Source: Thermoplasmatales archaeon
GTDB lineage: Archaea > Thermoplasmatota > E2 > DHVEG-1
Assembly: GCA_020350825.1 (NCBI GenBank)
Contig: CP070724.1
Coordinates: 2,012,848-2,076,847, forward strand
Length of the DNA: 64,000 bases
Direction of reading: 5' to 3'
A program made the position numbers and the translations under genes. Shown here one piece after another: positions 33,410-46,474 of the stretch. Below the pieces are notes generated by a model. That model was not told the DNA's origin. It did no database searches and saw only the letters and a list, made by a program, of their open reading frames with translations. Each line of letters starts with the position of its first letter. Positions within the stretch are counted from its first letter, which is position 1.

Positions 33410-35365
33410 TTACACAAGTTTTATACTATTAATTTCACTGAGTGTTTCAAGATTATTCATCTTAATCATGTTATTTGAAATTGTGTAGAGAATATCGTCA
33501 ATGTAGAGAGAGCGAGAGATGGAAGAAGAACCCCAATATCCATAATAACCTGATTTAAGAATATCCTCGTCATCTAAATGAGTTATTCGGCCCTTGTATT
33601 CAAATCCATTTTCAAGGCTTAATCGATATACAAAGGCTCCCTGAAACGTAAATTCGCCATACATACTACCAGTATAGTCATCATATTGCTCTTTGATTTC
33701 ATCGCTTATCTCAAAGAGGTTTACAGGTATTACCAACAATTCTTTTTCTCTGTCAAACAAAAAAGCTTTATGGTCATATAGAGCTGGACTATCTGTTCCA
33801 CGATCTCCGATGATTATCTTAGCAACCTCTTTTGGATTCTTGAAATCACTGACGTCAAACAATGCAATTTTGAGCCCTTGATACCAGGCAAAATCTAAGT
33901 TACGAGATTCTTTTAGAGAATCGAGTGCTTCAATGGTGTCTTTTCCAATACCGATGATATGATTCTCATCGTAAGGGTGTAGATAATCAGAATACCCAGG
34001 TATTTTCAGTTTTCCAAGGATTTTTGGATTGTACGGATCAGATAAATCGAGTGTAAAGAATGGGTCGATTTTCTTAAAGGTTACAAGATAAGCCTTTCCA
34101 CCAAGAAATCTTGCTGAATAGATTTGTTCACCAGGAGCGATATCTTCTATTTCGGATACACGGTTTAAATCCTCATCTAGGATATAGACATTGTTGCTAG
34201 ATTTAACATTCTGATCCCACACATTTCCAACTGTTGTTGCAATCCTGAAAAATCCATCATGTTCATCCATGGAGAATTGGTTCAAAACACGACCTGGGAC
34301 ATCTCCTTGAGCAGAATAAGAGATATCTCCATCTTTTATCGAGATTTTATGAAGGATTGTACTTTCCCCATAATCGTCACTAGAGCCTCCAATCAGAGGA
34401 ATAGGATAAACATAATTATATTTTGTATATGCTAAGAAAATATTATTTTTCGATACATACATAGATTGAGAACTGCCAAGAAAAAAACTTTTTTGATTTA
34501 CTTCATCATCATATATGTTAATCGATATAACATGAGTCATAGTATCCAGTCTCTCAGGTATATCCACATAGTAAATCTGGTCGGCGGGTATTTTTCTTGA
34601 AACATCATTAATAGCTATCTCAGGTATGTTAATGGTTTCATTACCCTCACGAACACCGTAAATATTATAAGAATACTCAGTAGCGATAATATAGATGTAA
34701 TCGCCAATCATTCGGGAATCAAAGTATCCCCCATCTACTTCTATATCTTTTACGAATTCAGGATTTTCTCTATCAGTTATATCGTATATTTTAATCACTG
34801 TTGTCGATATTCCGCCCCACCAACAATATTCAGATGTATCATAGCCTAATGGATTTTTATATGAATTACCAAAAACAATGAGTCGATCTTTGGTGATGAA
34901 AATATTGCTGAGATACACATCGCTTTCCAACAAGATTTCAGATAAAATAATAGCTTTCTCCGCAGGATAAGCTCTTACAATAAATACCTTCTGATCTGCT
35001 ACAATATACAAATAAGTGCCATCTGTTTTTACAATATCTGGTTCATCCACACCTTCTACTTGGATATTTGTATTTGAGAAATCAACAGGTGTCCCAACAA
35101 CACCATTATTATCTCCAGCTTCGCCTCTTCCAGATTTTGAAAAAGCCATTGCAGGGACATCTTCACAGAGCCACCCATAACCAGTATAGTTCTCATAATT
35201 ACTATTCAGAAAATCAATGAGTTCGTCATAGGACGAAAATGTTTGAATTTCATATGTATATGTCCCTCTGCTAAGTGGCGATAGTGAAAATGCAGTAACT
35301 AGACTTGCGCATACCAACATGCCTAATACAATTATTCCTTTTATTTGAACATTTTTCAGGTTCAT
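33410..35365 (-). CDS. large secreted hypothetical protein (beta-rich, probable beta-propeller)
   Basis: Signal peptide MNLKNVQIKGIIVLGMLVCASLVTA. 651 aa, no catalytic motif recognised. Confidence 0.4.
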   Translation of the reverse strand: MNLKNVQIKGIIVLGMLVCASLVTAFSLSPLSRGTYTYEIQTFSSYDELIDFLNSNYENYTGYGWLCEDVPAMAFSKSGRGEAGDNNGVVGTPVDFSNTNIQVEGVDEPDIVKTDGTYLYIVADQKVFIVRAYPAEKAIILSEILLESDVYLSNIFITKDRLIVFGNSYKNPLGYDTSEYCWWGGISTTVIKIYDITDRENPEFVKDIEVDGGYFDSRMIGDYIYIIATEYSYNIYGVREGNETINIPEIAINDVSRKIPADQIYYVDIPERLDTMTHVISINIYDDEVNQKSFFLGSSQSMYVSKNNIFLAYTKYNYVYPIPLIGGSSDDYGESTILHKISIKDGDISYSAQGDVPGRVLNQFSMDEHDGFFRIATTVGNVWDQNVKSSNNVYILDEDLNRVSEIEDIAPGEQIYSARFLGGKAYLVTFKKIDPFFTLDLSDPYNPKILGKLKIPGYSDYLHPYDENHIIGIGKDTIEALDSLKESRNLDFAWYQGLKIALFDVSDFKNPKEVAKIIIGDRGTDSPALYDHKAFLFDREKELLVIPVNLFEISDEIKEQYDDYTGSMYGEFTFQGAFVYRLSLENGFEYKGRITHLDDEDILKSGYYGYWGSSSISRSLYIDDILYTISNNMIKMNNLETLSEINSIKLV

Positions 35366-35528
35366 ATTATCACATCACTTCCTTTTTATCCAAAATTATA
35401 TCCTCCAAAGTTTATATACTGTAGGAAAACGTTTGGAAAAAACCAAATAAACTCACAAGAAAGATGGGGATATTATACAATAGTCATAAAGAAAATTTAA
35501 ATAAATAGGTTAATTGAGTATTAATGTT

Positions 35529-36263
35529 TTAGGCTTTTTCTAGTTCAAAAATTAAATACTCATTATCATCCATGAAGACTCTTATATCATTTTGTTGAGT
35601 AACAAATCTGTTCTTCTCAAGGGTTAGCAAATAATCTCCTGGTGGAAGTCGTAAGACAAAGCATCCTCTGTTGATCAGTGGAATTCTTTTTGTAAAAGTA
35701 ACTCTTTTAAATGAATCTGATTGAACAGTAACTTTTACACCAGGTATGCTTGTATTAAACAGCCCACCAATAACCTGTCCTTTGATAGTTACAAACTTAG
35801 TTTGTGGAAAAAAATTGAATATAAATACACTGTCAGAATCTTCCGCTCTATTGTTATTATTGTCGTAGGCTTCTATTTTGACATTGTGTCCTAAAAATTT
35901 TTTTTCATTCCACGTCCATTTATAAGGAGGATCGTATACTGTATCTCTTAATTGCCCATCAATGTAGAAGTTCACCATTTTTATTCCAGATTCATTATCT
36001 GAAACCTCGGCTATAACATCGATACCTCCAATTATTGTAGGGGTAGAAAGCCCCCTTATCGCCTTGTTGTTTATATACAACTCTTTGTCAGGTTTTACAA
36101 GCTTTACAATGGGGGGGGTAGTATCATTTTCATTAGAAAATTCTGTAATCTCACTATAGTCTATATTAAAAGATATATTTTTAGATGATATTGGATTAAT
36201 ACCACTTATCAGTAACAAAGATATTATTCCAATTATTGCAATCTTTACAGCATTATTTTTCAT
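35529..36263 (-). CDS. secreted protein with carboxypeptidase-regulatory-like / Ig-like domain
   Basis: Signal peptide. C-terminal VTIKGQVIGGLFNTSIPGVKVTVQSD matches the CarbopepD_reg-like pattern. Confidence 0.4.
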   Translation of the reverse strand: MKNNAVKIAIIGIISLLLISGINPISSKNISFNIDYSEITEFSNENDTTPPIVKLVKPDKELYINNKAIRGLSTPTIIGGIDVIAEVSDNESGIKMVNFYIDGQLRDTVYDPPYKWTWNEKKFLGHNVKIEAYDNNNNRAEDSDSVFIFNFFPQTKFVTIKGQVIGGLFNTSIPGVKVTVQSDSFKRVTFTKRIPLINRGCFVLRLPPGDYLLTLEKNRFVTQQNDIRVFMDDNEYLIFELEKA

Positions 36264-36380: not shown

Positions 36381-37703
36381 TTATAGAACCTCGGTTTCTT
36401 CGTTAAATTTAATACCCATCCCTTCAAGTTCATCAAGAATTGGATCGTAGATCTCTGGAATTACAGGAATGTGAATTCCAGTAATATTGATTATCCCTTC
36501 CAAAATCATTTTAACAGCAATAGCTGCCGGCAATGTAACTGTACGTGCAATCGAAGAATCGCCATGAGGTATGCCATAATCAACCAATGTCGAAGTAACG
36601 TACTCCTTGCTAGAAGGATACTCTACAATAATCTCATGATACATCACAATCATATCTCGCTCTCCCTCACCTAATAACATCTTCTTCAGAGTTATTATAT
36701 TGAGATAATCTAGCGGATTGTAATTTTTTTCTGGAAGTAATTCATCGCTAAAAAGACCTAACCATTCAAGTCGTTTAATAACAGCAGAATATGGTTCTAG
36801 ACCAAGATATATCGCAGTTGCTTTTAGAAGATTTTCATCAGAGCTCACACCAATAAGATGTCTTGTAAGATCACCGTATGTTTTGCCAGAAAAACCATCG
36901 ACTGGTTCATCGCTTAGCCACCCCAAAGCTACAATTTTTCTCATAGTTTCACACCAACCAGTCATCCTAAATGTGCCACGATACACTGTTTTTGCGTCTT
37001 TTAATCCATAGATTTCCTTATAAGGTACAGAGTTTCTGTTTGGGTAGTTTTCAAATGTACCAACTCCTGGAACGTCCTGTAAAATATAGTTTTCAAAGAG
37101 CTGCTCACCAGGGATTGATATCTCCTCGCCATTTTCCAGCCATTTTGAGGGATTCTTGGATGCTAGAAGAACACCTCGGGGAGCCCATGAAAATTTGTAA
37201 CCAAAAGGATTGTTATTGGCCTCATAGGATGGAAGGGCACCAGTAGTAGATCTAAAACTAACAACCTTTCCACCTTTCATCTCGACATCATGGATTATCC
37301 TCATTGCAGACATATGATCGATACCTGGATCAAGGCCGCTTTCATTAAGAAGTAAAATCCCTACTTCTTTTGCTTGGTCATTAAGCTTTTGCATCTCGTC
37401 ACTTACATAGGATGTAGTTACCAGGTGTTTTTTATGTTTTATACATAGTTTTGCTACTTTAACGTGATAGTTATATGGTAATAGACTAACGGTGACATCT
37501 GACTCAGAAATTAGTTGCTCTAATGTTGAATCATCCAAAACGTTTAATGCCACTGCTTCTCCTCTTTCATGGGAATCTATTATTTTTTCGGCTTTGCTTA
37601 CTGTTCTGCTTGCCATTTTCACGTGATAATTTGGTTGATCCAAAAGATATCTTACTAGAGGTCTAGAAACCATCCCGGCACCAAGAACCAATACTTTCTT
37701 CAT
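36381..37703 (-). CDS. saccharopine dehydrogenase (NADP+, L-glutamate-forming; LYS9 / AASS C-terminal SDH-domain homolog)
   Basis: KKVLVLGAGMVSRP Rossmann start. SLLPY..H..VAK.CI, LDPGIDHM, PFGYKFSWAPRGVL, ENYPNRNS and KDMIVM segments align with the SDH half of eukaryotic AASS. Confidence 0.85.
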   Translation of the reverse strand: MKKVLVLGAGMVSRPLVRYLLDQPNYHVKMASRTVSKAEKIIDSHERGEAVALNVLDDSTLEQLISESDVTVSLLPYNYHVKVAKLCIKHKKHLVTTSYVSDEMQKLNDQAKEVGILLLNESGLDPGIDHMSAMRIIHDVEMKGGKVVSFRSTTGALPSYEANNNPFGYKFSWAPRGVLLASKNPSKWLENGEEISIPGEQLFENYILQDVPGVGTFENYPNRNSVPYKEIYGLKDAKTVYRGTFRMTGWCETMRKIVALGWLSDEPVDGFSGKTYGDLTRHLIGVSSDENLLKATAIYLGLEPYSAVIKRLEWLGLFSDELLPEKNYNPLDYLNIITLKKMLLGEGERDMIVMYHEIIVEYPSSKEYVTSTLVDYGIPHGDSSIARTVTLPAAIAVKMILEGIINITGIHIPVIPEIYDPILDELEGMGIKFNEETEVL

Positions 37704-37752
37704 TTTTTATCTCCCATAATCTATAGAACTGTTGGAGGCGAAATGGATTTCC

Positions 37753-39051
37753 TTATAAATATTTGTCGATGTACTGATAATCGGGTGTAAGTTTGCCGTG
37801 ATACAAAATAACCGCTTTTTTTATTGAGGGAGGCAAGTTACAATTGTCAAAATCCTGGGTGAAATCGGCTTTTACAATTTCTGGTACCAAAGTATGAAGA
37901 GCAATACTAAAAGCATGAGAAGATTCACGTGGTAACTCACATGGAAGATTGTCAATTCCCATAACAACAACACCTTCGTCAATGTATCCATCCTTTATCG
38001 TGTCTGATAAGGGATTATAAACAAATACTGGATTATCGGGGGTGGTTGCCTTCTCAGTAAATTCAATTGCCCCGTTAATGTCTATGCTTATATCTCCAAT
38101 TACTTGTAAACTCAAACATTCTGTATAATTTTTCTTCAAAAAATCCTTGGTAACAAGTCGTGGATACTGAGTATTCCAGTATATACAATTCATTAGAATT
38201 GTTAAATAAGGAACATATCTCTCAAAAATAGATTGATATTTTTCAGGGTACTGATAATAATCCTGAAGATCAAAGCTATCATTAGACGAAATCGGTTCTA
38301 CCATGTCTTCTTCTTTGAAAACTACTTTATATATACATTTATTTGAAGGATTATCATAAATCTTTTCCATTTCTTTAGGTAAAATCTCTTCCTCAGGCAG
38401 TATATCTAGGATTTCTTGACCACCTTTTGATACATTACCATATCCAGCAAATCCAATTATCAAAGGTGTTAAAGAATCGGAAAGTCCATTTTGTTGTATC
38501 TTTTTACCAATTTTTTTAAAATGCTCTTTGATTTCATCAAGATTTTTATAATAAATCGTTTGTTTGATTTCATTAAACGACGTGTCTATATTTTTGGAAT
38601 TCAACCTCTGCCCAAAAGCCCATAGAGTATCAACCATCCCTGCAATACCTGCAAATCTACCAAAGAAAATCAGACGATACCCACGCTTATCTGCAATTTT
38701 TTCATAATCAATTAAATTACACTTAAGGTCTATCATTTTCCTAAGCATAGGCATATTATAATTCTGACCTTTGACCGTATGAGAGAAGAAAATATAGGTT
38801 TTCCCATATTCAAAAAAATCGATAGGTATTTCCTTTACTGCAAAAATGGTTGGACAGTTTGATAAATCTTCTTTAACAACAGCACCTGCTTTAATATATT
38901 CATCTTCAGAATAAACACGAATTCGTGAGGGTTGAATGATTGTTTTAATACCATATTTTTCTTTGAATTCTTTAACATGTTTTGGAATTAATGGGACCCT
39001 TCTTTCCCACCGATTTTTGTCTTCTCTTCTAATACCTATTGTAAAAACCAT
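37753..39051 (-). CDS. lysine-ketoglutarate reductase / saccharopine dehydrogenase (L-lysine-forming; LYS1 / AASS N-terminal LKR-domain homolog)
   Basis: IRREDKNRWERRVPLIPKHVKEF, IIQPSRIRVYSEDEYIKAGAVVKEDLS, TYIFFSHTVKGQ, IDYEKIADKRGYRLIFFGRFAGIAGMVDTL and IDNLPCELP align with the LKR domain of AASS. Confidence 0.8.
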   Translation of the reverse strand: MVFTIGIRREDKNRWERRVPLIPKHVKEFKEKYGIKTIIQPSRIRVYSEDEYIKAGAVVKEDLSNCPTIFAVKEIPIDFFEYGKTYIFFSHTVKGQNYNMPMLRKMIDLKCNLIDYEKIADKRGYRLIFFGRFAGIAGMVDTLWAFGQRLNSKNIDTSFNEIKQTIYYKNLDEIKEHFKKIGKKIQQNGLSDSLTPLIIGFAGYGNVSKGGQEILDILPEEEILPKEMEKIYDNPSNKCIYKVVFKEEDMVEPISSNDSFDLQDYYQYPEKYQSIFERYVPYLTILMNCIYWNTQYPRLVTKDFLKKNYTECLSLQVIGDISIDINGAIEFTEKATTPDNPVFVYNPLSDTIKDGYIDEGVVVMGIDNLPCELPRESSHAFSIALHTLVPEIVKADFTQDFDNCNLPPSIKKAVILYHGKLTPDYQYIDKYL

Positions 39052-39116: not shown

Positions 39117-40187
39117 CTATTTGTATCGAAGAATTGCTCCAACATGTCCAAGATTATGTATTTCCTCATCATCGGTGAACTCAATTTCCGAATCGGTTCT
39201 TTCAGCAAACTCTAAAATTTCTTCAATTACATCTACCTCAGAAGTAGGATTACCACAATTTGGGCAGTTTTTAATCGCACCCGCTTTTAATAGTTGACAA
39301 TGCTCACATAGGCATCCCTTGAGTTTGTAATCTTTTTCAATTATGAGAAGTTCAACCTGTCCGTTTTTTACCGCGTTTAAAGTATCATCAAATCCATAAA
39401 CAGCAAGACCATCTTTTAGGATTTCTTCTTTTAACTGTTGAACTGCCCCCTTGCTTTTTCGTTCTTCTAACTCAGATATTAAATGAATAGATTCTTTTAA
39501 CAGCTCTTTCTCATCATCAATGCTTATGTCAATTACTTCAACAATTTTCTTTTTAAGTTTTTTAGAAAGCATATCACTGAACTGGAATTTTGCCTGCCCA
39601 GGGCCTGCAAGAACAATTTGCTCATCAGCAATTTTTTCAAGTGCATCCTTAACTTCTGAGAAGAAAGCGTGTATAGCTCCCTTTCTTAGCCTTTGAAAAC
39701 GCGCTTGGGACCAACCTCCCTTTTTATGTTTGTTCATAATATCTGCAGAGAGGTTTTTTTCTTGCTCTACTTTACCAAGAGAAATTGAAAATATTTTTGC
39801 ATAGTTTGAATTCAGAAGTACTAATGTAAAGGATTCCCACTCATCTTTAATCCTAGCAAGAGGGCGTATATATGGTGAGGAATCAACAATTAATGAATTG
39901 TTTATTTTAAAAGGTAGAGAGATGTGTTTAAAAAAATTATGTTTGTGAGATGCAAATATTGCTAATGTATTACCTGTATTTATATTAAGAAATTCCTTGA
40001 TTTTTTCCATTGTAATAATAAAATTTTTCTGTTCTTCTCCCGATAGTAACGACTTACAAGCTTTTTCCCGTCTCTCCAAGAATTTTATATTTGCATCTTT
40101 ATTAATGTAGATGCTGACATATGTATCTCGACTATCTGCATCGTAAATCTCTGACAATTCTCTAATTAATTCACTTAAATCATTCAT
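39117..40187 (-). CDS. eRF1/Pelota-superfamily paralog with GGW(SQ) in place of GGQ and a Zn-ribbon insert
   Basis: Central loop KHKKGGWSQARFQRLRKGA parallels the eRF1 sequence HGRGGQSALRFARLR. C-terminal end GHVGAILRYK matches eRF1/Pelota domain 3. CxxC...CxxC at CEHCQ...CPNCG. Confidence 0.6.
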   Translation of the reverse strand: MNDLSELIRELSEIYDADSRDTYVSIYINKDANIKFLERREKACKSLLSGEEQKNFIITMEKIKEFLNINTGNTLAIFASHKHNFFKHISLPFKINNSLIVDSSPYIRPLARIKDEWESFTLVLLNSNYAKIFSISLGKVEQEKNLSADIMNKHKKGGWSQARFQRLRKGAIHAFFSEVKDALEKIADEQIVLAGPGQAKFQFSDMLSKKLKKKIVEVIDISIDDEKELLKESIHLISELEERKSKGAVQQLKEEILKDGLAVYGFDDTLNAVKNGQVELLIIEKDYKLKGCLCEHCQLLKAGAIKNCPNCGNPTSEVDVIEEILEFAERTDSEIEFTDDEEIHNLGHVGAILRYK

Positions 40188-40292: not shown

Positions 40293-40565
40293 ATGGGAAA
40301 ACAAACTTCTCTAAAAAGAAATGACGTTATAAGTGCTTCAGAAATTGGTCAATACATGTATTGTTCCATAGCATGGCATTTACAGAGACATGGACATGAA
40401 CCAATTTCACCAATGCTTGAAGTCGGTAAAAAAGCCCATATTGATCTAGGTCAAACAATTGACAATATTCAAGATGAACTAGGCAGTTCAAGACGGTTTG
40501 CAATCATTGGTTATCTGTTTTTGATTCTTGCAATTATTATCATTATTTACGGGGTGATTATATAG
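40293..40565 (+). CDS. Cas4-like / DUF83 PD-(D/E)xK nuclease, N-terminal fragment ending in a TM helix (frameshift-split)
   Basis: ISASEIGQYMYCSIAWHL resembles the Cas4 N-terminus with the first Fe-S cysteine. Ends in hydrophobic FAIIGYLFLILAIIIIIYGVII. Confidence 0.45.
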   Translation: MGKQTSLKRNDVISASEIGQYMYCSIAWHLQRHGHEPISPMLEVGKKAHIDLGQTIDNIQDELGSSRRFAIIGYLFLILAIIIIIYGVII

Positions 40566-40591
40566 ATATTTTTATAGCTATAAGCATCATT

Positions 40592-41092
40592 TTGTTTTTA
40601 TGTGCTGTTTTTTCCTTTTTTATATCAAAAAAAATGCATATAGGTGCTGTAAGCAAAAAGAAAATATATAGAATTCCTGACGGTAGAATTGCGTATTCCG
40701 ATTTGAATATTCCAGCAAAAGCATTGTTTTCAAAACGCTATAGAATAGCTGGTAAACCAGATTACATTGTGAAGAGAAATCATCACTATATCCCTATTGA
40801 AGTGAAATCAGGATCATATCCAAATCCACAGAGAAACCATATTTTACAACTTGCAACGTATTGTCAATTGATAGAGGATAATTATAGAGATTTTGTTCCT
40901 TACGGTATAATCATTTACAAAGACTCTGATTTCAAAATACCATTTGATCCAAAACTACGATTTGAGTTAGCATCTGTTATTAACGAGATAAGAGGATCGT
41001 TAAAAAATGATAAAATAGTATTAAATCATAATGATCCAGGGAGATGTAGATTTTGCTCGATGAGGTCGTATTGTACAGAGAAACTGGTTTAA
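40592..41092 (+). CDS. Cas4-like / DUF83 PD-(D/E)xK nuclease, C-terminal part (other reading frame)
   Basis: GKPDYIV...IPIEVKSG (D...E-x-K) and C-terminal CRFCSMRSYC tri-cysteine cluster. Starts with a hydrophobic segment. Confidence 0.5.
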   Translation: MFLCAVFSFFISKKMHIGAVSKKKIYRIPDGRIAYSDLNIPAKALFSKRYRIAGKPDYIVKRNHHYIPIEVKSGSYPNPQRNHILQLATYCQLIEDNYRDFVPYGIIIYKDSDFKIPFDPKLRFELASVINEIRGSLKNDKIVLNHNDPGRCRFCSMRSYCTEKLV

Positions 41093-41141
41093 TGACAATA
41101 GACAGAAAAACCATTTAAAAAAATTTTTAAACAAATTATAT

Positions 41142-41399
41142 ATGCTTACGAACGAACGTTTTTCATGGGGGAATAACTTAATGGAAGTTAAAAATTTAAC
41201 ATTTGAAGACGGAGTGCTTCTATGTAAACACATATATCAATGTGCTATACATAAAACGCTTAATGATGTTCCAGAACAATGGGATATTTTTTGTAAAACA
41301 CATGAAGCTTTAGAGAAATTAGACCAGAAGTTTAGTAACGAGCGGTTGTATGAAGTATTATTTAAGCTCAACATGGAAGACATCTACGCAAAGATGTAG
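41142..41399 (+). CDS. hypothetical protein
   Basis: 85-aa ORF, no motif. Confidence 0.3.
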   Translation: MLTNERFSWGNNLMEVKNLTFEDGVLLCKHIYQCAIHKTLNDVPEQWDIFCKTHEALEKLDQKFSNERLYEVLFKLNMEDIYAKM

Positions 41400-41512: not shown

Positions 41513-43285
41513 ATGCGTATAGCAGTGTTACTAAGAGACAGATGTAAATCAAAACGATGTGCAGTAGAATGTATAAAATATTGCCCGAGAGTAAGAGCTG
41601 GGGATGAAACTATTATTATGGGGGAAGATAACAAACCTATTATTTCTGAGGAGTTATGTGTTGGTTGTGGCATCTGCATTAATAAATGTCCATATGATGC
41701 AATTAAAATAATTGGTCTTGCTGAAGAATTAAAAACAGACCTTGTTCACCAGTTTGGGAAAAACGGATTTAGATTATATCGGTTACCAATCCCAAAAAAA
41801 GGTATTTGTACAGGTATACTTGGTCAGAATGGAATAGGAAAAACTACAGCCATAAAAATCCTATCTGGACAGTTTATGCCAAATTTAGGCTATTATGAAG
41901 ACGAATCTGATTGGGATGATGTTCTTGAGTATTACTCTGGAACAGAACTTTATGAACATTTTAAAGGTCTGTCAAACAATAAAATAACGTGTGTGTTAAA
42001 ACCCCAATATGTGGATAAACTCCCAAAGAGTATTAAGGGAAAAATTGGAGATATCCTTAGAAAAGCAGATAATTCTGGGAATTTTGATATTGTTGTTGAA
42101 AAGCTGGAAATAGGAAATATTCTTGATAAAGAAATTCAAAAAGGAACTATTTCTGGTGGTGAACTCCAACTTGTTTCTATAGCTGCAGCGTTAATTAAAG
42201 ATGTAGACCTGTATTTTTTTGATGAACCTACTTCATATCTTGATATCTATCAGCGATTAAAAGTTGCTCGAATTATTAGAGAATTATCAAAGGAGAAAAA
42301 GGCCATAGTTGTAGAGCATGATCTTGCAGTACTTGATTTCCAATGTGATAATGTTCACATCATGTACGGTACTGAAGGCGCATATGGTGTAGTGACCTTT
42401 CCCCGTAGTGTACGACATGCAATAAATACCTATCTTTCAGGCTATCTTAAGGAAGAAAACATCAGATTTGGGGAGAAAATAGAGTTTTCTGCTCATCCTC
42501 CTAAGCAACGACAAAAGATGAGTATTCTTGTGTCTTATGATAATCTGGCTAAATCATTCAAAGATTTTAATCTTGACGTTGAAAATGGTATGATTAGACA
42601 AGGGGAACTAGTTGGTGCCGTAGGACCAAATGCAATTGGAAAAACAACATTTGTTAAAATGCTCGCAGGTGTTATAAAACCCACAGAAGGAACAATTGAA
42701 TATAATATTAAAATAAGCTATAAACCTCAATATATCTCTCCCGAATACAAAGGAACCCTGAGAGAATTTTTTGAAAAAAGTTCTCAAAAATTGTTTACCT
42801 CTTCTTTTTTCAAAGCAGAGGTGTATGAGCCGTTGCATCTTAAGTATTTACTTGACAGGCAATTAGAAACATTTTCTGGTGGGGAATTACAACGGGTGGC
42901 AATTGCTTCTTGTCTTGTAAAAGACGCAGACATATTTCTTATTGACGAACCATCTGCATATCTTGATAGTGAACAGCGAATGATTGTATCAAGAATGCTG
43001 CGCAGGGTAATAGAAAAATCTGGTAAATCTGCAATGATCGTAGACCATGACGTCTATTTTATTGACATGGTATGTGACGCATTGATAGTTTTTGACGGTG
43101 AATCTGGAAAGCATGGTAAAGCACAAGGACCGTTTAGTTTACATGAAGGTATGAATCGTTTCTTGAAAGATGTAGATATTACATTTCGCAGAGATGAAGA
43201 CACGCAAAGACCACGGGTAAATAAAACTGATTCATATATGGATAGGAAACAAAAACAAAGTGGTGAATTTTACTACAAAATGTAA
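41513..43285 (+). CDS. abce1: ABCE1 (RNase L inhibitor homolog), ribosome-recycling ATPase
   Basis: N-terminal Fe-S domain CxxCxxxC...CVGCGICINKCP plus two ABC cassettes with Walker A GQNGIGKTT / GPNAIGKTT. Confidence 0.95.
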   Translation: MRIAVLLRDRCKSKRCAVECIKYCPRVRAGDETIIMGEDNKPIISEELCVGCGICINKCPYDAIKIIGLAEELKTDLVHQFGKNGFRLYRLPIPKKGICTGILGQNGIGKTTAIKILSGQFMPNLGYYEDESDWDDVLEYYSGTELYEHFKGLSNNKITCVLKPQYVDKLPKSIKGKIGDILRKADNSGNFDIVVEKLEIGNILDKEIQKGTISGGELQLVSIAAALIKDVDLYFFDEPTSYLDIYQRLKVARIIRELSKEKKAIVVEHDLAVLDFQCDNVHIMYGTEGAYGVVTFPRSVRHAINTYLSGYLKEENIRFGEKIEFSAHPPKQRQKMSILVSYDNLAKSFKDFNLDVENGMIRQGELVGAVGPNAIGKTTFVKMLAGVIKPTEGTIEYNIKISYKPQYISPEYKGTLREFFEKSSQKLFTSSFFKAEVYEPLHLKYLLDRQLETFSGGELQRVAIASCLVKDADIFLIDEPSAYLDSEQRMIVSRMLRRVIEKSGKSAMIVDHDVYFIDMVCDALIVFDGESGKHGKAQGPFSLHEGMNRFLKDVDITFRRDEDTQRPRVNKTDSYMDRKQKQSGEFYYKM

Positions 43286-43333: not shown

Positions 43334-44035
43334 ATGATTGAATGGTTTCTCTTAGTGTTTATGTCTTTTCTACCGCCAATTATATACACAGTATGGATTA
43401 GAAACACAGAAAAATACAATCGTGAAAAATGGAAAACCATTTTGTTATGTTTTTTATGGGGAGCTAGTATTGCCATTATTGCTGCGTTATTTATAGAAAT
43501 ATTATTAGAAATTTCACTTGATGCTTCAATTCAGGATTACGATACTCTTTCTCTTCTATCTTTAGTTCTTGTTGCTCCGGTTGCTGAAGAATTTTCAAAA
43601 CCTCTAGTATTGGGATTAAAATCCGTTAAAAAAGAGATTGATGAGCTTGAAGATGGGCTTATATATGGTGCAGTAGCTGGTCTTGGTTTTTCAGCGACAG
43701 AGAATCTATTTTACGGGTGGAGTTTTCTCTCAAAGGGGTTATTTATTTTCTTAATTCTGATCAGTTTAAGAAGTTTTGGAGGCTGTTTACTCCATGCTTC
43801 AGCAACGGCATTGACCGGATATGGTTATGGAAAAACTATTATGAAACATACAACAGTTCTGCGTGTCATTCCATATTTTATCTTAGCAATTTTTGTTCAT
43901 TCAGCCTATAATTTCCTTGTCTCATATGATATGATAGGTGCTTTAACCGGCCTTTTTGCAGCGTTGATTTTTGTTATATTTGCAATAACTTTTGTAAGAA
44001 AAAAAATTAAAATTCTAGATAAACAAAGTAATTAA
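43334..44035 (+). CDS. PrsW-family intramembrane protease
   Basis: Multi-TM protein with EEFSK, FSATENLFY and HASATALTGYGYG motifs. Confidence 0.6.
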   Translation: MIEWFLLVFMSFLPPIIYTVWIRNTEKYNREKWKTILLCFLWGASIAIIAALFIEILLEISLDASIQDYDTLSLLSLVLVAPVAEEFSKPLVLGLKSVKKEIDELEDGLIYGAVAGLGFSATENLFYGWSFLSKGLFIFLILISLRSFGGCLLHASATALTGYGYGKTIMKHTTVLRVIPYFILAIFVHSAYNFLVSYDMIGALTGLFAALIFVIFAITFVRKKIKILDKQSN

Positions 44036-44050
44036 AATTTTTAATATTTT

Positions 44051-46474
44051 TTAAATTCCACCGCCAGGTTTGATGTTTATAAAGATTAAGAATACAAAAC
44101 CGTTTAATTCTTTCGTATCCGTTGATCCATCTGGAATCCAGGTATCAACGTTTACTACTGTAGGTCCAAATCCAATTATGAAATTTGAATTTATAGTCTC
44201 TATTTCATCTGCGGCAATAGTTAGATCAGAACCTTCTGACACTTGACCAATAAACGCTCCGCCATCTAATGTAATTCTCCAATTCACTCCCGTTGCTTCA
44301 ACTGCACCGTTGTTTTCAATATCCACAGCTATTTTGAATAGTCCACCTTTGATGGTACCAATATTAAGCGATGGTCCTTCAACTATGTTGATTGTGTGGT
44401 TGGTAGACCAATCACTTTCGCCAAATTCATCCCTTGCTTTTACTTTTATTTCATAGTTACCTTCTACAATCCAAGCATGGTATCCTTCTACAGAAGTTCC
44501 GGAAGCTACTGGCCCTATCCAATCACTATAGGTTCCATCTCCCCAGTCAAACATGTATGAGATTGGGTCTTCCTCAGGATCTGTTGTGACAGCTGTGAAG
44601 GTGTATTCTACCTGAGTTATACCATCAGCTGGTCCAGAAGGTGCATCAGGGATCCCAGGATTTTTATTGGCATTTGTAGCGGCCAAATTTTGTATTGCAT
44701 CTATATCTGCCCCTGGGTTTATTTCGTAGGCATCCCCATCACCATCGTCAACTATCTTAACATATCTTGCAAAATCCACTGAAAGTCCATCCATATCAAA
44801 CTCTGTTGTTCCCATACCTGATCCTACTAAAACCCATGGTCCGTTCCAATTAGAAGAAACATACACCTGATATCCATCGTCTGTGCTATCACCTTCAACA
44901 ACTTTTAAATCAGGTTCATTTTCCAGATTAAAAATCTCTGTTCCCTCTCCCATGTCTAGAACTATATCTCCGCCTTTTCCCAAGGAGGCACAGTATTCAT
45001 CTGGAATACCTAGGGCATGGATTCCATCGGTAGGATTATTTTGAAAATTACCAGAGGGTGCATAGTATTTACACCACGTAACCTGATATGCATAATAGCT
45101 ATTTATAGGCTGTAATTCTATATCGAGAATTGTAGGATCAGTATCACTGGTTACTGTAACCGTCTCAATTTCTTCTGCGTAGCCATTTGCCTGGAAATGA
45201 ACAGTATATGTACCTGGAGAAAGCACATGATGGTAATCGCCAATAGCAGGGTCAGTAAACGTGGGCCAATATGCTTCCTCTACCCAAACAGTAGCGGTAA
45301 GCGGTTGACCTGTATTAGCATCCTTAACTAAACCCGTTAATCCTAAATTTGCGGCATCAATAATATCAAGCATTGCCTGACGGTTCTTATTCCATGAATA
45401 AGGGATGTTGCTATTACCGGTTTCAATGGTCCAATCTATATCACCTCGGCAGCCATAGCTGAAATCATTGGTATCACCCCTCGTTTGATACCAGTCATAT
45501 CCACGAATTGCAGTATAGCCACTTAATGCAGCATAGTGGTAAGATAGCTGCTGAATCATTGCATCATCAGGGCTTGGCTGCGCCTTATAATTCCACAAAT
45601 AGTTCACGTAAGCTGCTGTGGTATGGAAAGAAAGAGATAAAACAAAGTTGTTCTCAAGGGCATGCTGTCGAATAACCTGAGTTTCTGGCTGTGAAAACGG
45701 TGATGGACTACTACCAGAACCAGCCCACATATAACCATAATCCCTGTTGAGATCCACACCATTTGCATTGTAGCGAGTAGATGCTTCTCTGCCATCAGGG
45801 TTTACCATTGGTATAATCCAGATTTCCCGGTTATCAACCAGGTCTTCAATAATAGGATCACTCGCATAGTTATCTACAAGATGCCATGCTAAAAGTAAGG
45901 GTAGCTCGACAGACATAAACTCATTACCATGATGACAACCGCAGATACGTACTTCAGGCTCATTTTCCTCAATACTAGGATTGTCCGTTATCTTAAGACC
46001 CCAAATAGTCCGCCCTTGGACACTACTGCCAAGGTCGTATAGCTCTGCGATATTAGAATAGATATTGGCAATATTTTGCAGTTCACTGGTCATTGTAGAG
46101 TAAGAATGGAATTGACGGACAAATTCAGGAGGAAACATCTTTTCATTCATTTCTGCGAGATTTTCAAAAAGAATTTCTGATTTGAATCCAGAATTATGAA
46201 GCCATTCTAGTTCGCTATTAGTTATATAAGCTGTAACCTTTGAATCCTTAACATCAACGATATCAAGGTCACGATCAATCAATTCCTGCAATTGTGAACG
46301 ATGAGTAAATGAAATACTGACAACCTTCGACTCAGGTATTTGATAGATAGGGTATTGCCCGGGATTTGAATCATCCCCTACAATTTGGTTTCCTAATGTT
46401 ATAATCCCCGTAAAAACAGTTGCTATCAAAATAAATGAAAAAGCTATCGTTATAATTCTGGTTTTAATTTTCAT
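44051..46474 (-). CDS. secreted zinc carboxypeptidase (M14 family) with PKD domain
   Basis: Signal/TM start. M14 motifs CGCHHGNEF (HxxE), PMVNPDGR, NRDYGY. PKD motif YMFDWGDGTYSDWIGP. Confidence 0.8.
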   Translation of the reverse strand: MKIKTRIITIAFSFILIATVFTGIITLGNQIVGDDSNPGQYPIYQIPESKVVSISFTHRSQLQELIDRDLDIVDVKDSKVTAYITNSELEWLHNSGFKSEILFENLAEMNEKMFPPEFVRQFHSYSTMTSELQNIANIYSNIAELYDLGSSVQGRTIWGLKITDNPSIEENEPEVRICGCHHGNEFMSVELPLLLAWHLVDNYASDPIIEDLVDNREIWIIPMVNPDGREASTRYNANGVDLNRDYGYMWAGSGSSPSPFSQPETQVIRQHALENNFVLSLSFHTTAAYVNYLWNYKAQPSPDDAMIQQLSYHYAALSGYTAIRGYDWYQTRGDTNDFSYGCRGDIDWTIETGNSNIPYSWNKNRQAMLDIIDAANLGLTGLVKDANTGQPLTATVWVEEAYWPTFTDPAIGDYHHVLSPGTYTVHFQANGYAEEIETVTVTSDTDPTILDIELQPINSYYAYQVTWCKYYAPSGNFQNNPTDGIHALGIPDEYCASLGKGGDIVLDMGEGTEIFNLENEPDLKVVEGDSTDDGYQVYVSSNWNGPWVLVGSGMGTTEFDMDGLSVDFARYVKIVDDGDGDAYEINPGADIDAIQNLAATNANKNPGIPDAPSGPADGITQVEYTFTAVTTDPEEDPISYMFDWGDGTYSDWIGPVASGTSVEGYHAWIVEGNYEIKVKARDEFGESDWSTNHTINIVEGPSLNIGTIKGGLFKIAVDIENNGAVEATGVNWRITLDGGAFIGQVSEGSDLTIAADEIETINSNFIIGFGPTVVNVDTWIPDGSTDTKELNGFVFLIFINIKPGGGI

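What the first reader, a model, noticed from the sequence alone, without database searches (positions are those of the whole stretch)
39117..40187. eRF1/Pelota-family paralog with GGW(SQ) instead of GGQ and a zinc-ribbon insert, near ABCE1
The central loop KHKKGGWSQARFQRLR is plainly homologous to the eRF1 catalytic loop HGRGGQSALRFARLR. The catalytic Gln is replaced by Trp, with a Gln two residues later (GWSQ, a GxxQ arrangement reminiscent of Vms1-type release factors). The C-terminal domain ends with the family-typical GAILRY and contains a CxxC…CxxC ribbon. The N-terminal domain resembles neither the eRF1 NIKS domain nor the Pelota Sm-like domain. It lies 1.3 kb from ABCE1, the partner of Pelota/eRF1 in ribosome splitting. 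This could be a ribosome-rescue or quality-control factor of a poorly described clade.
Basis: partly seen in the sequence, partly recalled or inferred. Interest (0 to 1): 0.65.

Follow-up and report, generated by a model that had tools for sequence, protein, structure and literature searches.

The report
Archaeal Balon-like release-factor paralog (baeRF-1 family 10)
This gene encodes a real, conserved third relative of the archaeal release factor aRF1 and of Pelota; it belongs to a family already catalogued by computation (Pfam baeRF family 10, "potential archaeal Balon") whose function has never been tested.

Summary
The ORF (39117-40187, minus strand, 356 aa) is real and under purifying selection. 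It is identical to a "hypothetical protein" of a Thermoplasmatales MAG. It is neither the canonical aRF1 nor the Pelota ortholog. All 80 relatives tested match Pfam PF18854 (baeRF-1 family 10). The predicted fold has three aeRF1-type domains, and its overall shape is closest to the bacterial hibernation factor Balon (TM 0.77-0.79).

The loop HKKGG[W/M/C]SQxR[F/Y]xR is the most conserved segment of the family. Trp is only the commonest residue at its position. The GG pair, Ser and Gln161 are the constant features. This is the GGxSQ/GxuQ signature described in 2019 for Vms1-like release factors.

The N domain has the eRF1 N-domain fold but lacks NIKS and YxCxxxF. The zinc ribbon is a normal aRF1 feature.

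ABCE1 proximity is synteny within one Thermoplasmatota clade. None of 36 other archaeal loci has ABCE1 within 10 kb.

Relatives occur in at least 265 species genomes, including ANME-1, Methanoperedens, Archaeoglobaceae, Chloroflexota and Rubricoccus. A 2026 paper lists such proteins as "potential Balon", always alongside aeRF1.

My best guess is a stop-codon-independent A-site factor that releases peptidyl-tRNA. A non-catalytic hibernation role is nearly as likely. Verdict: a new member of a known, uncharacterised kind.

The parts
39117..40187 (-). Gene for the 356-aa aeRF1-superfamily paralog (baeRF-1 family 10 type). The stop codon is at 39117-39119.
   Evidence: The ORF is. The product is identical to JSW06_10450. 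PF18854 scores 68.5 bits against a cut-off of 27.1. dN/dS is 0.07-0.15. The AF2 model has pLDDT 90.7 and pTM 0.80.
39837..40187 (-). N-terminal domain (residues 1-117). It has the eRF1-type N-domain fold with a shortened helical hairpin. It has no NIKS and no YxCxxxF.
   Evidence: Secondary structure is. In Foldseek all top 25 hits are eRF1, aRF1 or Balon chains, the best being A. pernix aRF1 at TMq 0.67-0.69. None of 80 members matches Pfam eRF1_1. The only PDB hit of the N-domain profile is Balon Msmeg1130, E = 0.008.
39861..39878 (-). Conserved motif S104-P-Y-I-R-P109 at the junction of the N and middle domains. It occupies the place of eRF1 YxCxxxF.
   Evidence: It lies in the second most conserved 15-residue window of the family. 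S104, P105, Y106 and R108 are invariant in 80 sequences. It aligns with DSAFLTEPLA of H. salinarum aRF1 and with DDGPFIHPLV of Balon Msmeg1130.
39474..39836 (-). Middle domain (residues 118-238), an RNase-H-like eRF1 domain 2.
   Evidence: PF18854 matches residues 105-230 and PF03464 matches 120-236.
39684..39731 (-). Loop K153-HKKGGWSQARFQRL-R168, equivalent to the GGQ loop. The family motif is HKKGG[W>M,C,Q]SQxR[FY]xR.
   Evidence: It aligns without gaps to the GGQ loops. It is the most conserved window of the family, at 2.90 bits against a mean of 1.71. Position 159 is W 90, M 16, C 3, Q 3, F 3 of 122. Position 161 is Q in 104 of 122. H154, K156, G157, G158, S160, Q161, R163, R166 and R168 are invariant in 80 sequences of 33-90% identity.
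39120..39473 (-). C-terminal domain (residues 239-356), eRF1 domain 3 (Pelota/L7Ae-like), ending in GAILRYK.
   Evidence: PF03465 scores 36.7 bits over residues 245-356.
39246..39317 (-). Zinc ribbon inserted in the C domain (residues 291-314: C294-x2-C297 ... C308-x2-C311).
   Evidence: The four Cys are 93-99% conserved. The ribbon aligns with the Cys/His ribbon of H. salinarum aRF1 4af1. It is described as a common insert in aeRF1 (PMC6514570).
41513..43285 (+). ABCE1/RLI gene. It is a neighbour only, and it is not shown to belong to the same system.
   Evidence: NF009945 scores 877 bits. It lies within 10 kb of the family gene only in one Thermoplasmatota synteny clade and in none of 36 other loci.

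Best explanation
The gene encodes a third aeRF1-superfamily factor of this archaeon, in addition to aRF1 and Pelota. It is an archaeal member of baeRF-1 family 10.

It combines two things. The body is Balon-like: about 360 aa, with a reduced eRF1-type N domain that has no stop-codon-reading motifs. The loop is of the Vms1-like type (GG-x-S-Q) and is strictly conserved.

Proposed mechanism:
1. The protein enters the ribosomal A site as a tRNA mimic, without reading a stop codon.
2. The conserved SPYIRP element, which replaces YxCxxxF, contacts the decoding centre.
3. The C domain with its zinc ribbon faces the GTPase side, as in aRF1 and Pelota.
4. The GG[W/M]SQ loop, followed by a helix bearing R163, R166 and R168, reaches the peptidyl-transferase centre and triggers release of peptidyl-tRNA on stalled or idle ribosomes.

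What is shown:
- family membership
- the three-domain fold
- loss of the codon-reading motifs
- extreme conservation of the loop
- purifying selection
- co-occurrence with a separate Pelota

What is inferred:
- A-site binding
- catalysis by the loop
- any delivery by aEF1-alpha
- any later splitting by ABCE1
For: Membership:
- PF18854 scores 68.5 bits, above eRF1_2 at 59.9 and acVLRF1 at 46.5.
- All 80 relatives of 33-90% identity match PF18854, the best at 2.5e-32.

Fold:
- The AF2 model has pLDDT 90.7.
- Foldseek gives the best E-value for aRF1 4af1 (2.4e-23). It gives the best overall superposition for ribosome-bound Balon, TMq 0.77-0.79 at 4 A rmsd.
- The N domain alone matches only eRF1, aRF1 and Balon N domains.

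No stop-codon reading:
- None of the 80 relatives matches Pfam eRF1_1.
- The NIKS position is a two-residue turn between helices 34-47 and 50-69.
- YxCxxxF is replaced by LIVDSSP.

Catalytic-type loop:
- Residues 154-168 form the most conserved window across 122 representatives of 25-58% identity. GG is 96-98% conserved, Ser 88%, Gln 85% and R163 90%.
- The motif equals the GGxSQ/GxuQ signature that PMC6514570 assigns to VLRF-1 families. That paper singles out baeRF-1 family 10 as keeping a conserved Gln and possibly being a hydrolase. It describes most other baeRF-1 families (the clade in which I place Balon) as having poorly conserved loops.

Not a replacement of aRF1 or Pelota:
- TIGR03676 scores 125 bits, below its cut-off of 234.7.
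- Bona fide pelota lies on the same contig in three MAGs.
- PMC13324472 reports that all archaeal genomes with the 'potential Balon' also have aeRF1.

Functional gene: dN/dS is 0.07-0.15.
Against: - No experiment exists for any member of the family.
- The residue at the canonical Gln position is a large hydrophobic one. W, M, F or L make up about 91%. This could equally serve to stack on an rRNA base and hold the catalytic centre inert, as Balon's lasso loop does.
- In the AF2 model Gln161 is the first residue of the helix rather than the loop tip.
- The overall shape and the N-domain sequence are closest to Balon, which does not release peptides (PMC10901736).
- No conserved neighbour points to rescue.
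- I could not check directly that this very genome has aRF1 and Pelota. Neither is in the 64-kb window.
Confidence: 0.45

Rival explanations
1. It is a non-catalytic, Balon-type ribosome hibernation factor. It occupies the A site of idle or paused ribosomes independently of mRNA. The GG[W/M]SQ loop only anchors it near the peptidyl-transferase centre, for example by Trp/Met packing on an rRNA base. It protects ribosomes during starvation in slow-growing sediment archaea.
For: - The best overall structural match is Balon Msmeg1130, TMq 0.77-0.79. P. urativorans Balon gives 0.69-0.72.
- The only PDB hit of the N-domain profile is Balon. In that alignment IRPL lines up with IHPL.
- The NCBIfam hibernation-factor models give full-length though weak alignments of 50-78 bits.
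- PMC13324472 lists Balon homologues lacking NIKS and GGQ in the same lineages: Thermoplasmatota, Methanosarcinia and Syntropharchaeia. Our hits come from the same lineages.
- The canonical Gln position prefers a hydrophobic residue.
Against: - Scores on the three Balon-type models are far below their cut-offs of 320-480 bits.
- By sequence profile the family is nearer aRF1 (121 bits) than Balon (68 bits).
- Burroughs & Aravind describe poorly conserved, length-variable loops without Gln for most baeRF-1 families (PMC6514570), and the Balon paper reports no GGQ motif (PMC10901736). Here the loop is the most conserved block and has a fixed length.
- Balon's beta-hairpin replaces the zinc ribbon, whereas here the ribbon is intact.
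- The bL27 trap has no target in Archaea (PMC10901736).
Confidence: 0.35
2. It releases nascent chains as ANKZF1/Vms1 has been reported to do, by cutting the peptidyl-tRNA acceptor end rather than hydrolysing the ester bond.
For: It shares the GxuQ/GGxSQ loop signature with VLRF-1 families (PMC6514570). Pfam acVLRF1 scores 46.5 bits. NCBI names relatives 'Vms1/Ankzf1 family'. That ANKZF1 acts as a tRNA nuclease is from my own recollection of the literature. It was not checked here.
Against: The architecture differs from every VLRF-1 family. aVLRF-1 lacks the C domain and has an N-terminal coiled coil, and acVLRF-1 lacks the N domain (PMC6514570). The loop has the aRF1 length, not the longer VLRF-1 length (PMC6514570). 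NF041024 scores 19 bits against a cut-off of 125.
Confidence: 0.08
3. It is simply the organism's aRF1 or Pelota ortholog, a divergent but canonical termination or rescue factor.
For: JGI annotates many members as 'peptide chain release factor subunit 1'. TIGR03676 aligns over nearly the full length.
Against: - TIGR03676 scores 125 bits, below its cut-off of 234.7. There is no NIKS, YxCxxxF or GGQ.
- The N domain is not Sm-like.
- Real pelota genes of about 390 bits sit beside family members in three MAGs.
- The family also occurs in bacteria that use RF1 and RF2, such as Rubricoccus, Chloroflexota and Aminicenantes.
- It is found in only 265 species genomes.
- PMC13324472 reports aeRF1 in every genome that has it.
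Confidence: 0.02
4. It is a dedicated partner of ABCE1, encoded next to it because the two act together in ribosome splitting.
For: ABCE1 lies 1.3 kb away in the window. It lies within 1-7 kb in about 23 related loci. aRF1 and Pelota are known to work with ABCE1 (PMC6514570).
Against: The two genes are divergent and separated by three unrelated genes. The distance varies through insertions. The linkage is confined to one synteny clade that also keeps unrelated metabolic neighbours. None of 36 loci outside that clade has ABCE1 within 10 kb, and about 19 of these have 6.6 kb or more of upstream flank. No gene cluster is shared between the two groups of loci.
Confidence: 0.05

Closest known systems
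baeRF-1 family 10 (Pfam PF18854; Burroughs & Aravind 2019)
   Same: It is the best-scoring family model, matched by all 80 relatives tested. It shares the three-domain aeRF1 architecture and the conserved Gln in the loop, and the family has been predicted to be a possible hydrolase (PMC6514570). Bacterial members (Chloroflexota, WOR-3, Aminicenantes, Rubricoccus marinus) share GGWSQ, the zinc ribbon and the LLRY ending.
   Different: The family is named 'bacterial', but this member and hundreds of relatives are archaeal: Thermoplasmatota, ANME-1, Methanoperedens, Archaeoglobaceae and Theionarchaea. Archaeal and bacterial members are only about 25-30% identical. There are no functional data for any member.
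Balon (bacterial ribosome hibernation factor; PDB 8v9j/8v9l, 8rd8, 8v9k)
   Same: It gives the best overall structural superposition, TMq 0.77-0.79. The length is the same, about 360-375 aa. It shares the reduced N domain without NIKS. In the N-domain alignment IRPL lines up with IHPL. Proteins of this description were called 'potential Balon' in Archaea (PMC13324472).
   Different: Balon has no GGQ-type motif (PMC10901736), and most families of the baeRF-1 clade, in which I place it, have poorly conserved loops (PMC6514570). Here GGxSQ is the most conserved block. Balon has a beta-hairpin where this protein keeps a four-Cys zinc ribbon. NCBIfam Balon-family scores are 50-71 bits against cut-offs of 320-480. 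Sequence identity is 15-17%.
Classical aRF1/eRF1
   Same: It is the nearest solved relative by sequence: H. salinarum aRF1 at 121 bits and E = 5e-34 with the family profile. All three domains are the same, the loop has the same length, and the zinc ribbon and the GxLRY C-terminus are shared. The A. pernix aRF1 loop reads KHKMGGQSQRRYER, so it carries both Gln.
   Different: There is no NIKS, no YxCxxxF and no match to eRF1_1. The N domain is about 25-30 residues shorter. The loop reads GGW/M/C instead of GGQ. The score is below the TIGR03676 cut-off. The distribution is patchy rather than universal.
Vms1/ANKZF1-like release factors (VLRF-1 clade: eVLRF-1, bVLRF-1, aVLRF-1, acVLRF-1)
   Same: The loop signature is G-x-(S/A)-Q, and specifically GGxSQ as in aVLRF-1 and acVLRF-1 (PMC6514570). 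Pfam acVLRF1 scores above its gathering score. NCBI uses the name 'Vms1/Ankzf1 family peptidyl-tRNA hydrolase' for relatives.
   Different: The domain architecture differs. The full N and C domains are kept, and there is no coiled-coil, ankyrin or VIM module. The loop is not lengthened. The family10 model scores higher than acVLRF1. NF041024 scores far below its cut-off.
Pelota/Dom34
   Same: It shares the superfamily and the middle and C domains (E = 6.5e-5 to 2e-16). It is expected to act independently of stop codons.
   Different: The N domain is not Sm-like. The loop is conserved and carries Gln, unlike Pelota's. Bona fide pelota is encoded separately on the same contigs in three MAGs.

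Membership tests
baeRF-1 family 10 (PF18854) | Match to the family HMM above the gathering score, and better than to sister models | tested here: met
   It scores 68.5 bits against a cut-off of 27.1. This is above eRF1_2 (59.9), acVLRF1 (46.5) and family 2 (21.1). All 80 relatives match.
baeRF-1 family 10 (PF18854) | Well-conserved Gln in the catalytic loop (PMC6514570) | tested here: met
   Q161 is invariant in 80 archaeal-type sequences. It is Q in 104 of 122 representatives.
baeRF-1 family 10 (PF18854) | Three-domain aeRF1-like architecture (N domain, RNase-H-like middle domain, Pelota-type C domain) | tested here: met
   The AF2 model has pLDDT 90.7. Foldseek matches to aRF1, eRF1 and Balon run over the full length. 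The N domain alone matches eRF1, aRF1 and Balon N domains.
Classical aRF1 (TIGR03676) | Score at or above the equivalog cut-off | tested here: not met
   It scores 125.4 bits against a cut-off of 234.7. Relatives score 120-131 bits.
Classical aRF1 (TIGR03676) | Stop-codon-reading motifs NIKS and YxCxxxF, and a match to Pfam eRF1_1 | tested here: not met
   None of 80 members matches eRF1_1. The hairpin tip is a two-residue turn. LIVDSSP stands in place of YxCxxxF.
Classical aRF1 (TIGR03676) | GGQ tripeptide | tested here: not met
   This protein has GGW. The family has W 90, M 16, C 3 and Q 3 of 122 at that position.
Pelota (TIGR00111) | Score above the cut-off, and an Sm-like N domain | tested here: not met
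   The window protein gives no pelota hit at E <= 1. A relative scores 39 bits against 177.65. The N-domain fold matches eRF1-type domains and no Pelota N domain. Separate pelota genes of 389-396 bits lie on the same contigs in L053, L054 and L056.
Balon-type hibernation factors (NF052287/8/9) | Score at or above the equivalog cut-offs | tested here: not met
   It scores 70.8, 50.0 and 53.4 bits against cut-offs of 330, 480 and 320.
Balon-type hibernation factors (NF052287/8/9) | Absence of NIKS and of GGQ (the criterion used in PMC10901736 and PMC13324472) | tested here: met
   Both motifs are literally absent. However, a GGxSQ motif is present and conserved.
Balon-type hibernation factors (NF052287/8/9) | Overall fold like ribosome-bound Balon | tested here: met
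   TMq is 0.77-0.79 with rmsd 4.0-4.2 A to 8v9j and 8v9l. It is 0.69-0.72 to 8rd8, 8rdv and 8rdw.
Balon-type hibernation factors (NF052287/8/9) | Beta-hairpin insertion in the C domain in place of the zinc ribbon, and a bL27 trap | tested here: not met
   The four-Cys ribbon is 93-99% conserved. bL27 is absent from Archaea (PMC10901736).
Balon-type hibernation factors (NF052287/8/9) | Binds the A site of hibernating ribosomes without releasing the nascent chain | not testable with these tools
   This needs ribosome binding and release assays, or cryo-EM.
VLRF-1 clade (Vms1/ANKZF1, aVLRF-1, acVLRF-1) | GxuQ / GGxSQ loop motif | tested here: met
   The loop has G157-G158-W159-S160-Q161. The motif definition is from PMC6514570.
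VLRF-1 clade (Vms1/ANKZF1, aVLRF-1, acVLRF-1) | Family-specific architecture: aVLRF-1 has an N-terminal coiled coil and no C domain, and acVLRF-1 has no N domain and is about 208 aa | tested here: not met
   The N and C domains are both complete and there is no coiled-coil extension. NF041024 scores 19.4 bits against a cut-off of 125.

The most novel reading that the evidence does not exclude
The family is a catalytically active cousin of Balon. It would be a stop-codon- and mRNA-independent A-site factor, present in many anaerobic Archaea and some Bacteria, that releases nascent chains with a displaced Gln (GG-W/M-S-Q). It would give Archaea a third aeRF1-type factor beside aRF1 and Pelota. 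It would also mark the archaeal stock from which the bacterial Balon-like proteins and the Vms1-like loop type derive.
Probability: 0.4. Interest if true: 0.6.

Novelty: new member of a known kind. Interest (0 to 1): 0.35.

Why it matters
Archaea are usually credited with two A-site tRNA-mimic factors, aRF1 and Pelota. This gene is one of a third type. It occurs in many uncultured sediment lineages (Thermoplasmatota class E2/DHVEG-1, ANME-1, Methanoperedens) and in some bacteria.

The two existing labels for the family contradict each other. NCBI and the 2019 survey point to a 'Vms1/Ankzf1-type peptidyl-tRNA hydrolase'. The 2026 survey calls such proteins 'potential Balon hibernation factor'. 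The analysis here sharpens that conflict: the body is Balon-like, but the loop is the best-conserved part and has the Vms1-like GGxSQ signature.

Settling this would show whether Balon-type proteins began as rescue hydrolases. It would also show how archaea without a known RQC release factor clear stalled peptidyl-tRNA. The window itself adds no unique evidence, so the practical value is a corrected annotation and a clear experiment.

Tried and rejected
- The look-up of encoding contigs found no record of the exact protein.
The narrower alignment A3 worked.
- I searched for aRF1 or Pelota paralogs inside the window and found none.
- I could not search the rest of the JSW06 genome with these tools. 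I therefore did not verify directly that this genome has aRF1 and Pelota. That point rests on PMC13324472 and on three other MAG contigs.
- I considered typing an aRF1 probe from memory for a homology search. I rejected this because the 120-hit limit made success unlikely.
- An unbiased neighbour clustering of 80 loci found no gene shared between the synteny clade and the other 36 loci, apart from antisense shadow ORFs. Gene context therefore gives no functional lead. The pelota adjacency in L053, L054 and L056 is interrupted by opposite-strand genes and confined to related genomes.
- A single-sequence search of the N domain against PDB gave nothing.
- The supplements of PMC6514570 are not held. 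The supplements of PMC13324472 gave taxonomy but no per-genome Balon list.
- The Balon paper does not give the residue numbers of its 'HP motif'. The match of IRPL to IHPL therefore remains a lead, not a test.
- The promoter/terminator scan and the tandem-repeat scan were uninformative.
- I rejected the pseudogene or decaying-paralog idea because dN/dS is 0.07-0.15.
Full report
**1. The observation.**
The ORF 39117..40187 on the minus strand encodes 356 aa. The product is 100% identical to NCBI protein JSW06_10450. That record is a "hypothetical protein" of a Thermoplasmatales archaeon MAG on a 2.32-Mb contig.

The loop K153-HKKGGWSQARFQRL-R168 aligns without gaps to the GGQ loops of H. salinarum aRF1 (KGGQSAQRFARLR) and human eRF1 (GRGGQSALRFARLR). 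The C-terminal GAILRYK and the C294xxC297...C308xxC311 ribbon are present.

ABCE1 (41513..43285, plus strand) scores 877 bits on the RLI model. Its start codon is 1,325 bp from the start of this gene. The two genes are divergent and three small ORFs lie between them.

The gene is functional. dN/dS against five orthologues is 0.07-0.15. Homologues are abundant: 1484 in the word-indexed search and 2733 clusters at 50% identity, of which 133 have E <= 1e-30.

**2. What family it is.**
Pfam ranks baeRF_family10 (PF18854) first at 68.5 bits. eRF1_2 follows at 59.9, acVLRF1 at 46.5 and eRF1_3 at 36.7. All 80 relatives of 33-90% identity hit PF18854, and none hits the eRF1 N-domain model eRF1_1.

NCBIfam aligns the aRF1 equivalog over almost the full length, but at 125 bits against a cut-off of 234.7. 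The three Balon-type hibernation-factor models give 50-71 bits against cut-offs of 320-480. Pelota is not hit.

Against solved structures, the family profile scores as follows:

| Target | Bits |
|---|---|
| H. salinarum aRF1 | 121 |
| eRF1 | about 85 |
| Balon Msmeg1130 | 68 |
| P. furiosus Pelota | 63 |

So the protein is neither a canonical aRF1 nor a Pelota. It belongs to the family that Burroughs & Aravind defined by computation in 2019 (PMC6514570).

**3. The loop.**
In 15 close relatives (65-90% identity) position 159 is W, M or C. G157, G158, S160, Q161, A162, R163 and F164 are invariant.

In 122 full-length representatives of 25-58% identity the counts are as follows:

| Position | Residues |
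|---|---|
| 159 | W 90, M 16, C 3, Q 3, F 3 |
| 157-158 | GG, 96-98% |
| 160 | S 88%, A 10% |
| 161 | Q 85% |

Residues 154-168 form the most conserved 15-residue window of the whole protein, at 2.90 bits per column against a mean of 1.71.

The family signature is therefore HKKGG-x-SQ-x-R-[FY]-x-R, and Trp is only the commonest filler. This is the GGxSQ motif that PMC6514570 reports for aVLRF-1 and acVLRF-1. It also fits the GxuQ motif of Vms1/ANKZF1.

The same paper says that most baeRF-1 families have poorly conserved, length-variable loops without Gln and are probably inactive. [quoted passage not shown]

A. pernix aRF1 reads KHKMGGQSQRRYER. A Gln at the +2 position therefore also exists in some canonical aRF1s, and a few family members read GGQSQ.

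**4. Structure.**
AlphaFold2 with an 80-sequence alignment gives pLDDT 90.7 and pTM 0.80.

Foldseek against the PDB gives the best E-value for aRF1 4af1 (2.4e-23, TMq 0.56). The best global superposition is with ribosome-bound Balon. TMq is 0.77-0.79 at 4 A rmsd for Msmeg1130 and 0.69-0.72 for P. urativorans Balon. eRF1 gives at most 0.60 and Pelota at most 0.43.

The N domain modelled alone (pLDDT 84) matches only eRF1, aRF1 and Balon N domains in its top 25 hits. A. pernix aRF1 gives TMq 0.67-0.69 at 3.1-3.5 A. No Pelota N domain appears.

The fold is an eRF1-type N domain. Its helical hairpin (helices 34-47 and 50-69) ends in a two-residue turn where NIKS would be. YxCxxxF is replaced by the strongly conserved D102-x-S-P-Y-I-R-P109.

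A profile of the N domain alone hits a single PDB sequence, Balon Msmeg1130 (E = 0.008). There VVDsSPYIRPLA aligns with VVLDDGPFIHPLV. Whether that His-Pro is the "HP motif" of the Balon paper could not be verified from the text.

The zinc ribbon aligns with the ribbon in H. salinarum aRF1 and is a usual aeRF1 feature (PMC6514570). In this family it is intact, whereas many baeRF-1 families have only a beta-hairpin there.

**5. Distribution.**
A scan of one genome per species found relatives in 265 genomes. The best 80 are mostly Thermoplasmatota. They include SG8-52-3, which GTDB places in class E2, order DHVEG-1. The rest include Archaeoglobaceae, Theionarchaea, Methanophagales (ANME-1) and Methanosarcinales. 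Further searches add Ca. Methanoperedens and ANME-2.

More distant members of 25-30% identity, with the same GGWSQ, ribbon and LLRY features, are bacterial. They come from Chloroflexota/Anaerolineae, Caldilineaceae, WOR-3, Aminicenantes and the cultured Rubricoccus marinus.

Newer NCBI annotation calls these proteins "Vms1/Ankzf1 family peptidyl-tRNA hydrolase" or "baeRF10 domain-containing protein". JGI calls them "peptide chain release factor subunit 1".

A 2026 paper on archaeal hibernation factors (PMC13324472) found "potential Balon" homologues in 30% of Methanosarcinia, 10% of Syntropharchaeia and several Thermoplasmatota lineages. It separated them from aeRF1 and Pelota by the lack of NIKS and GGQ and by monophyly. 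It states that all genomes encoding one also have aeRF1, and sometimes pelota. The lineage pattern matches ours, so this is very probably the same family. I could not compare accession lists.

**6. Is it the genome's only Pelota or aRF1?**
No other aeRF1-superfamily gene lies in the 64-kb window, and I could not read the rest of the genome.

In the 80 related loci, three contigs carry a bona fide pelota (TIGR00111, 389-396 bits against a cut-off of 177.65) 3-4 kb upstream of the family gene. These are L053 and L054 (uncultured archaeon) and L056 (Archaeoglobaceae). The two genes are separated by opposite-strand genes.

For this particular genome it remains untested.

**7. ABCE1 and other neighbours.**
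The arrangement ABCE1 <- 85-aa ORF <- Cas4-like <- 90-aa ORF | family gene -> AlaDh_PNT/LKR-like -> saccharopine dehydrogenase is kept in 44 of the 80 loci. All 44 belong to one Thermoplasmatota clade of 57% identity or more. Within this block ABCE1 is seen in about 23 loci, at 0.9-6.8 kb.

None of the other 36 loci has ABCE1 within 10 kb, and about 19 of these have 6.6 kb or more of upstream flank. An unbiased clustering of all neighbouring ORFs found no gene family shared between the two groups.

The ABCE1 proximity is therefore inherited local synteny, together with unrelated metabolic genes. It is not evidence of a functional link.

**8. Mechanism.**
The following points are shown:
- The gene is conserved and selected.
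- The protein is a three-domain tRNA-mimic of the aeRF1 type.
- It lacks the stop-codon-reading motifs.
- Its most constrained part is a GG-x-S-Q loop followed by an Arg-rich helix.
- It coexists with canonical factors.

From this I infer a stop-codon-independent A-site factor. I favour a catalytic role, the release of peptidyl-tRNA on stalled or idle ribosomes (0.45). Three arguments support this. The loop has a fixed, aRF1-like length. It carries the signature of the VLRF-1 release factors. It contrasts with the degenerate loops described for most other baeRF-1 families.

It is established for class-1 release factors that the GG backbone conformation matters more than the Gln side chain. This is my own knowledge, in line with the discussion in PMC6514570. 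A Trp or Met at the canonical position therefore need not abolish activity.

The main rival is a non-catalytic Balon-type hibernation factor (0.35). It is supported by the global fold, by the N-domain similarity, and by the hydrophobic preference at position 159. That residue could anchor on an rRNA base.

The other readings are unlikely: a Vms1-like tRNA-cleaving variant (0.08), a dedicated ABCE1 partner (0.05) and a canonical ortholog (0.02).

**9. Verdict.**
But the family is already catalogued (Pfam PF18854, 2019; "potential Balon", 2026; NCBI product names). The ABCE1 argument does not hold. Neither Trp nor the zinc ribbon is the distinctive part.

It is a new member of a known, experimentally uncharacterised kind. 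The open question worth an experiment is whether this Balon-shaped protein with a Vms1-type loop releases peptides or only parks on ribosomes.

Noticed in passing
window 40293-41399 (+): ORFs 40293-40565, 40592-41092, 41142-41399: A stand-alone Cas4-like PD-(D/E)XK nuclease of 166 aa (TIGR00372, 76.6 bits against a cut-off of 65; also PF01930 and PF12705). It is flanked by two small ORFs with no family hit (90 aa with a hydrophobic C-terminus, and 85 aa). The trio lies just upstream of ABCE1 on the same strand. It is conserved in 26-37 of 44 syntenic Thermoplasmatota loci. There is no CRISPR array or tandem repeat in the window.
   Followed up: partly
L053:5607-6698, L054:5863-6945, L056:5826-6896: Bona fide pelota genes (TIGR00111, 389-396 bits) lie 3-4 kb upstream of the family gene in two 'uncultured archaeon' contigs and one Archaeoglobaceae contig. 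Opposite-strand genes separate them from the family gene.
   Followed up: yes
L014 and L070 (MAG JBFEOQ01); L034 and L048 (MAG CAZFFN01): Two diverged copies of the family gene occur in the same MAG. They are 65% and 52%, and 61% and 57%, identical to the window protein. This suggests paralogy within the family, or mixed bins.
   Followed up: no
L040 (WJMJ01000139.1, labelled Promethearchaeota): This contig carries a 57%-identical copy together with the Cas4-like gene and the 85-aa ORF in the Thermoplasmatota-type arrangement. It is probably a mis-binned Thermoplasmatota contig rather than an Asgard occurrence.
   Followed up: no
window 36381-39051 (-): An AlaDh_PNT (lysine-ketoglutarate-reductase-like) gene and a saccharopine dehydrogenase gene lie directly downstream of the family gene. 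The first starts 66 bp after the family gene's stop codon, and an A/T-rich TATA-like stretch lies in the spacer. The pair is kept in 43 of 44 syntenic loci.
   Followed up: partly
window 33410-36263 and 43334-46474: A cluster of secreted or membrane protease-type genes: an M14 zinc carboxypeptidase with PKD and CarboxypepD_reg domains (44051-46474), a PrsW intramembrane protease (43334-44035), a beta-propeller protein (33410-35365) and a Big_7/CarboxypepD_reg protein (35529-36263). From my own knowledge, this fits a protein-degrading sediment archaeon of the MBG-D/DHVEG-1 type.
   Followed up: no
P0360 (named [Eubacterium] cellulosolvens, 42.9-kb contig): A family member grouping with archaeal sequences (37% identity to a Thermoplasmata protein) is attributed to a Firmicute isolate record. 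This could be contamination or horizontal transfer.
   Followed up: no
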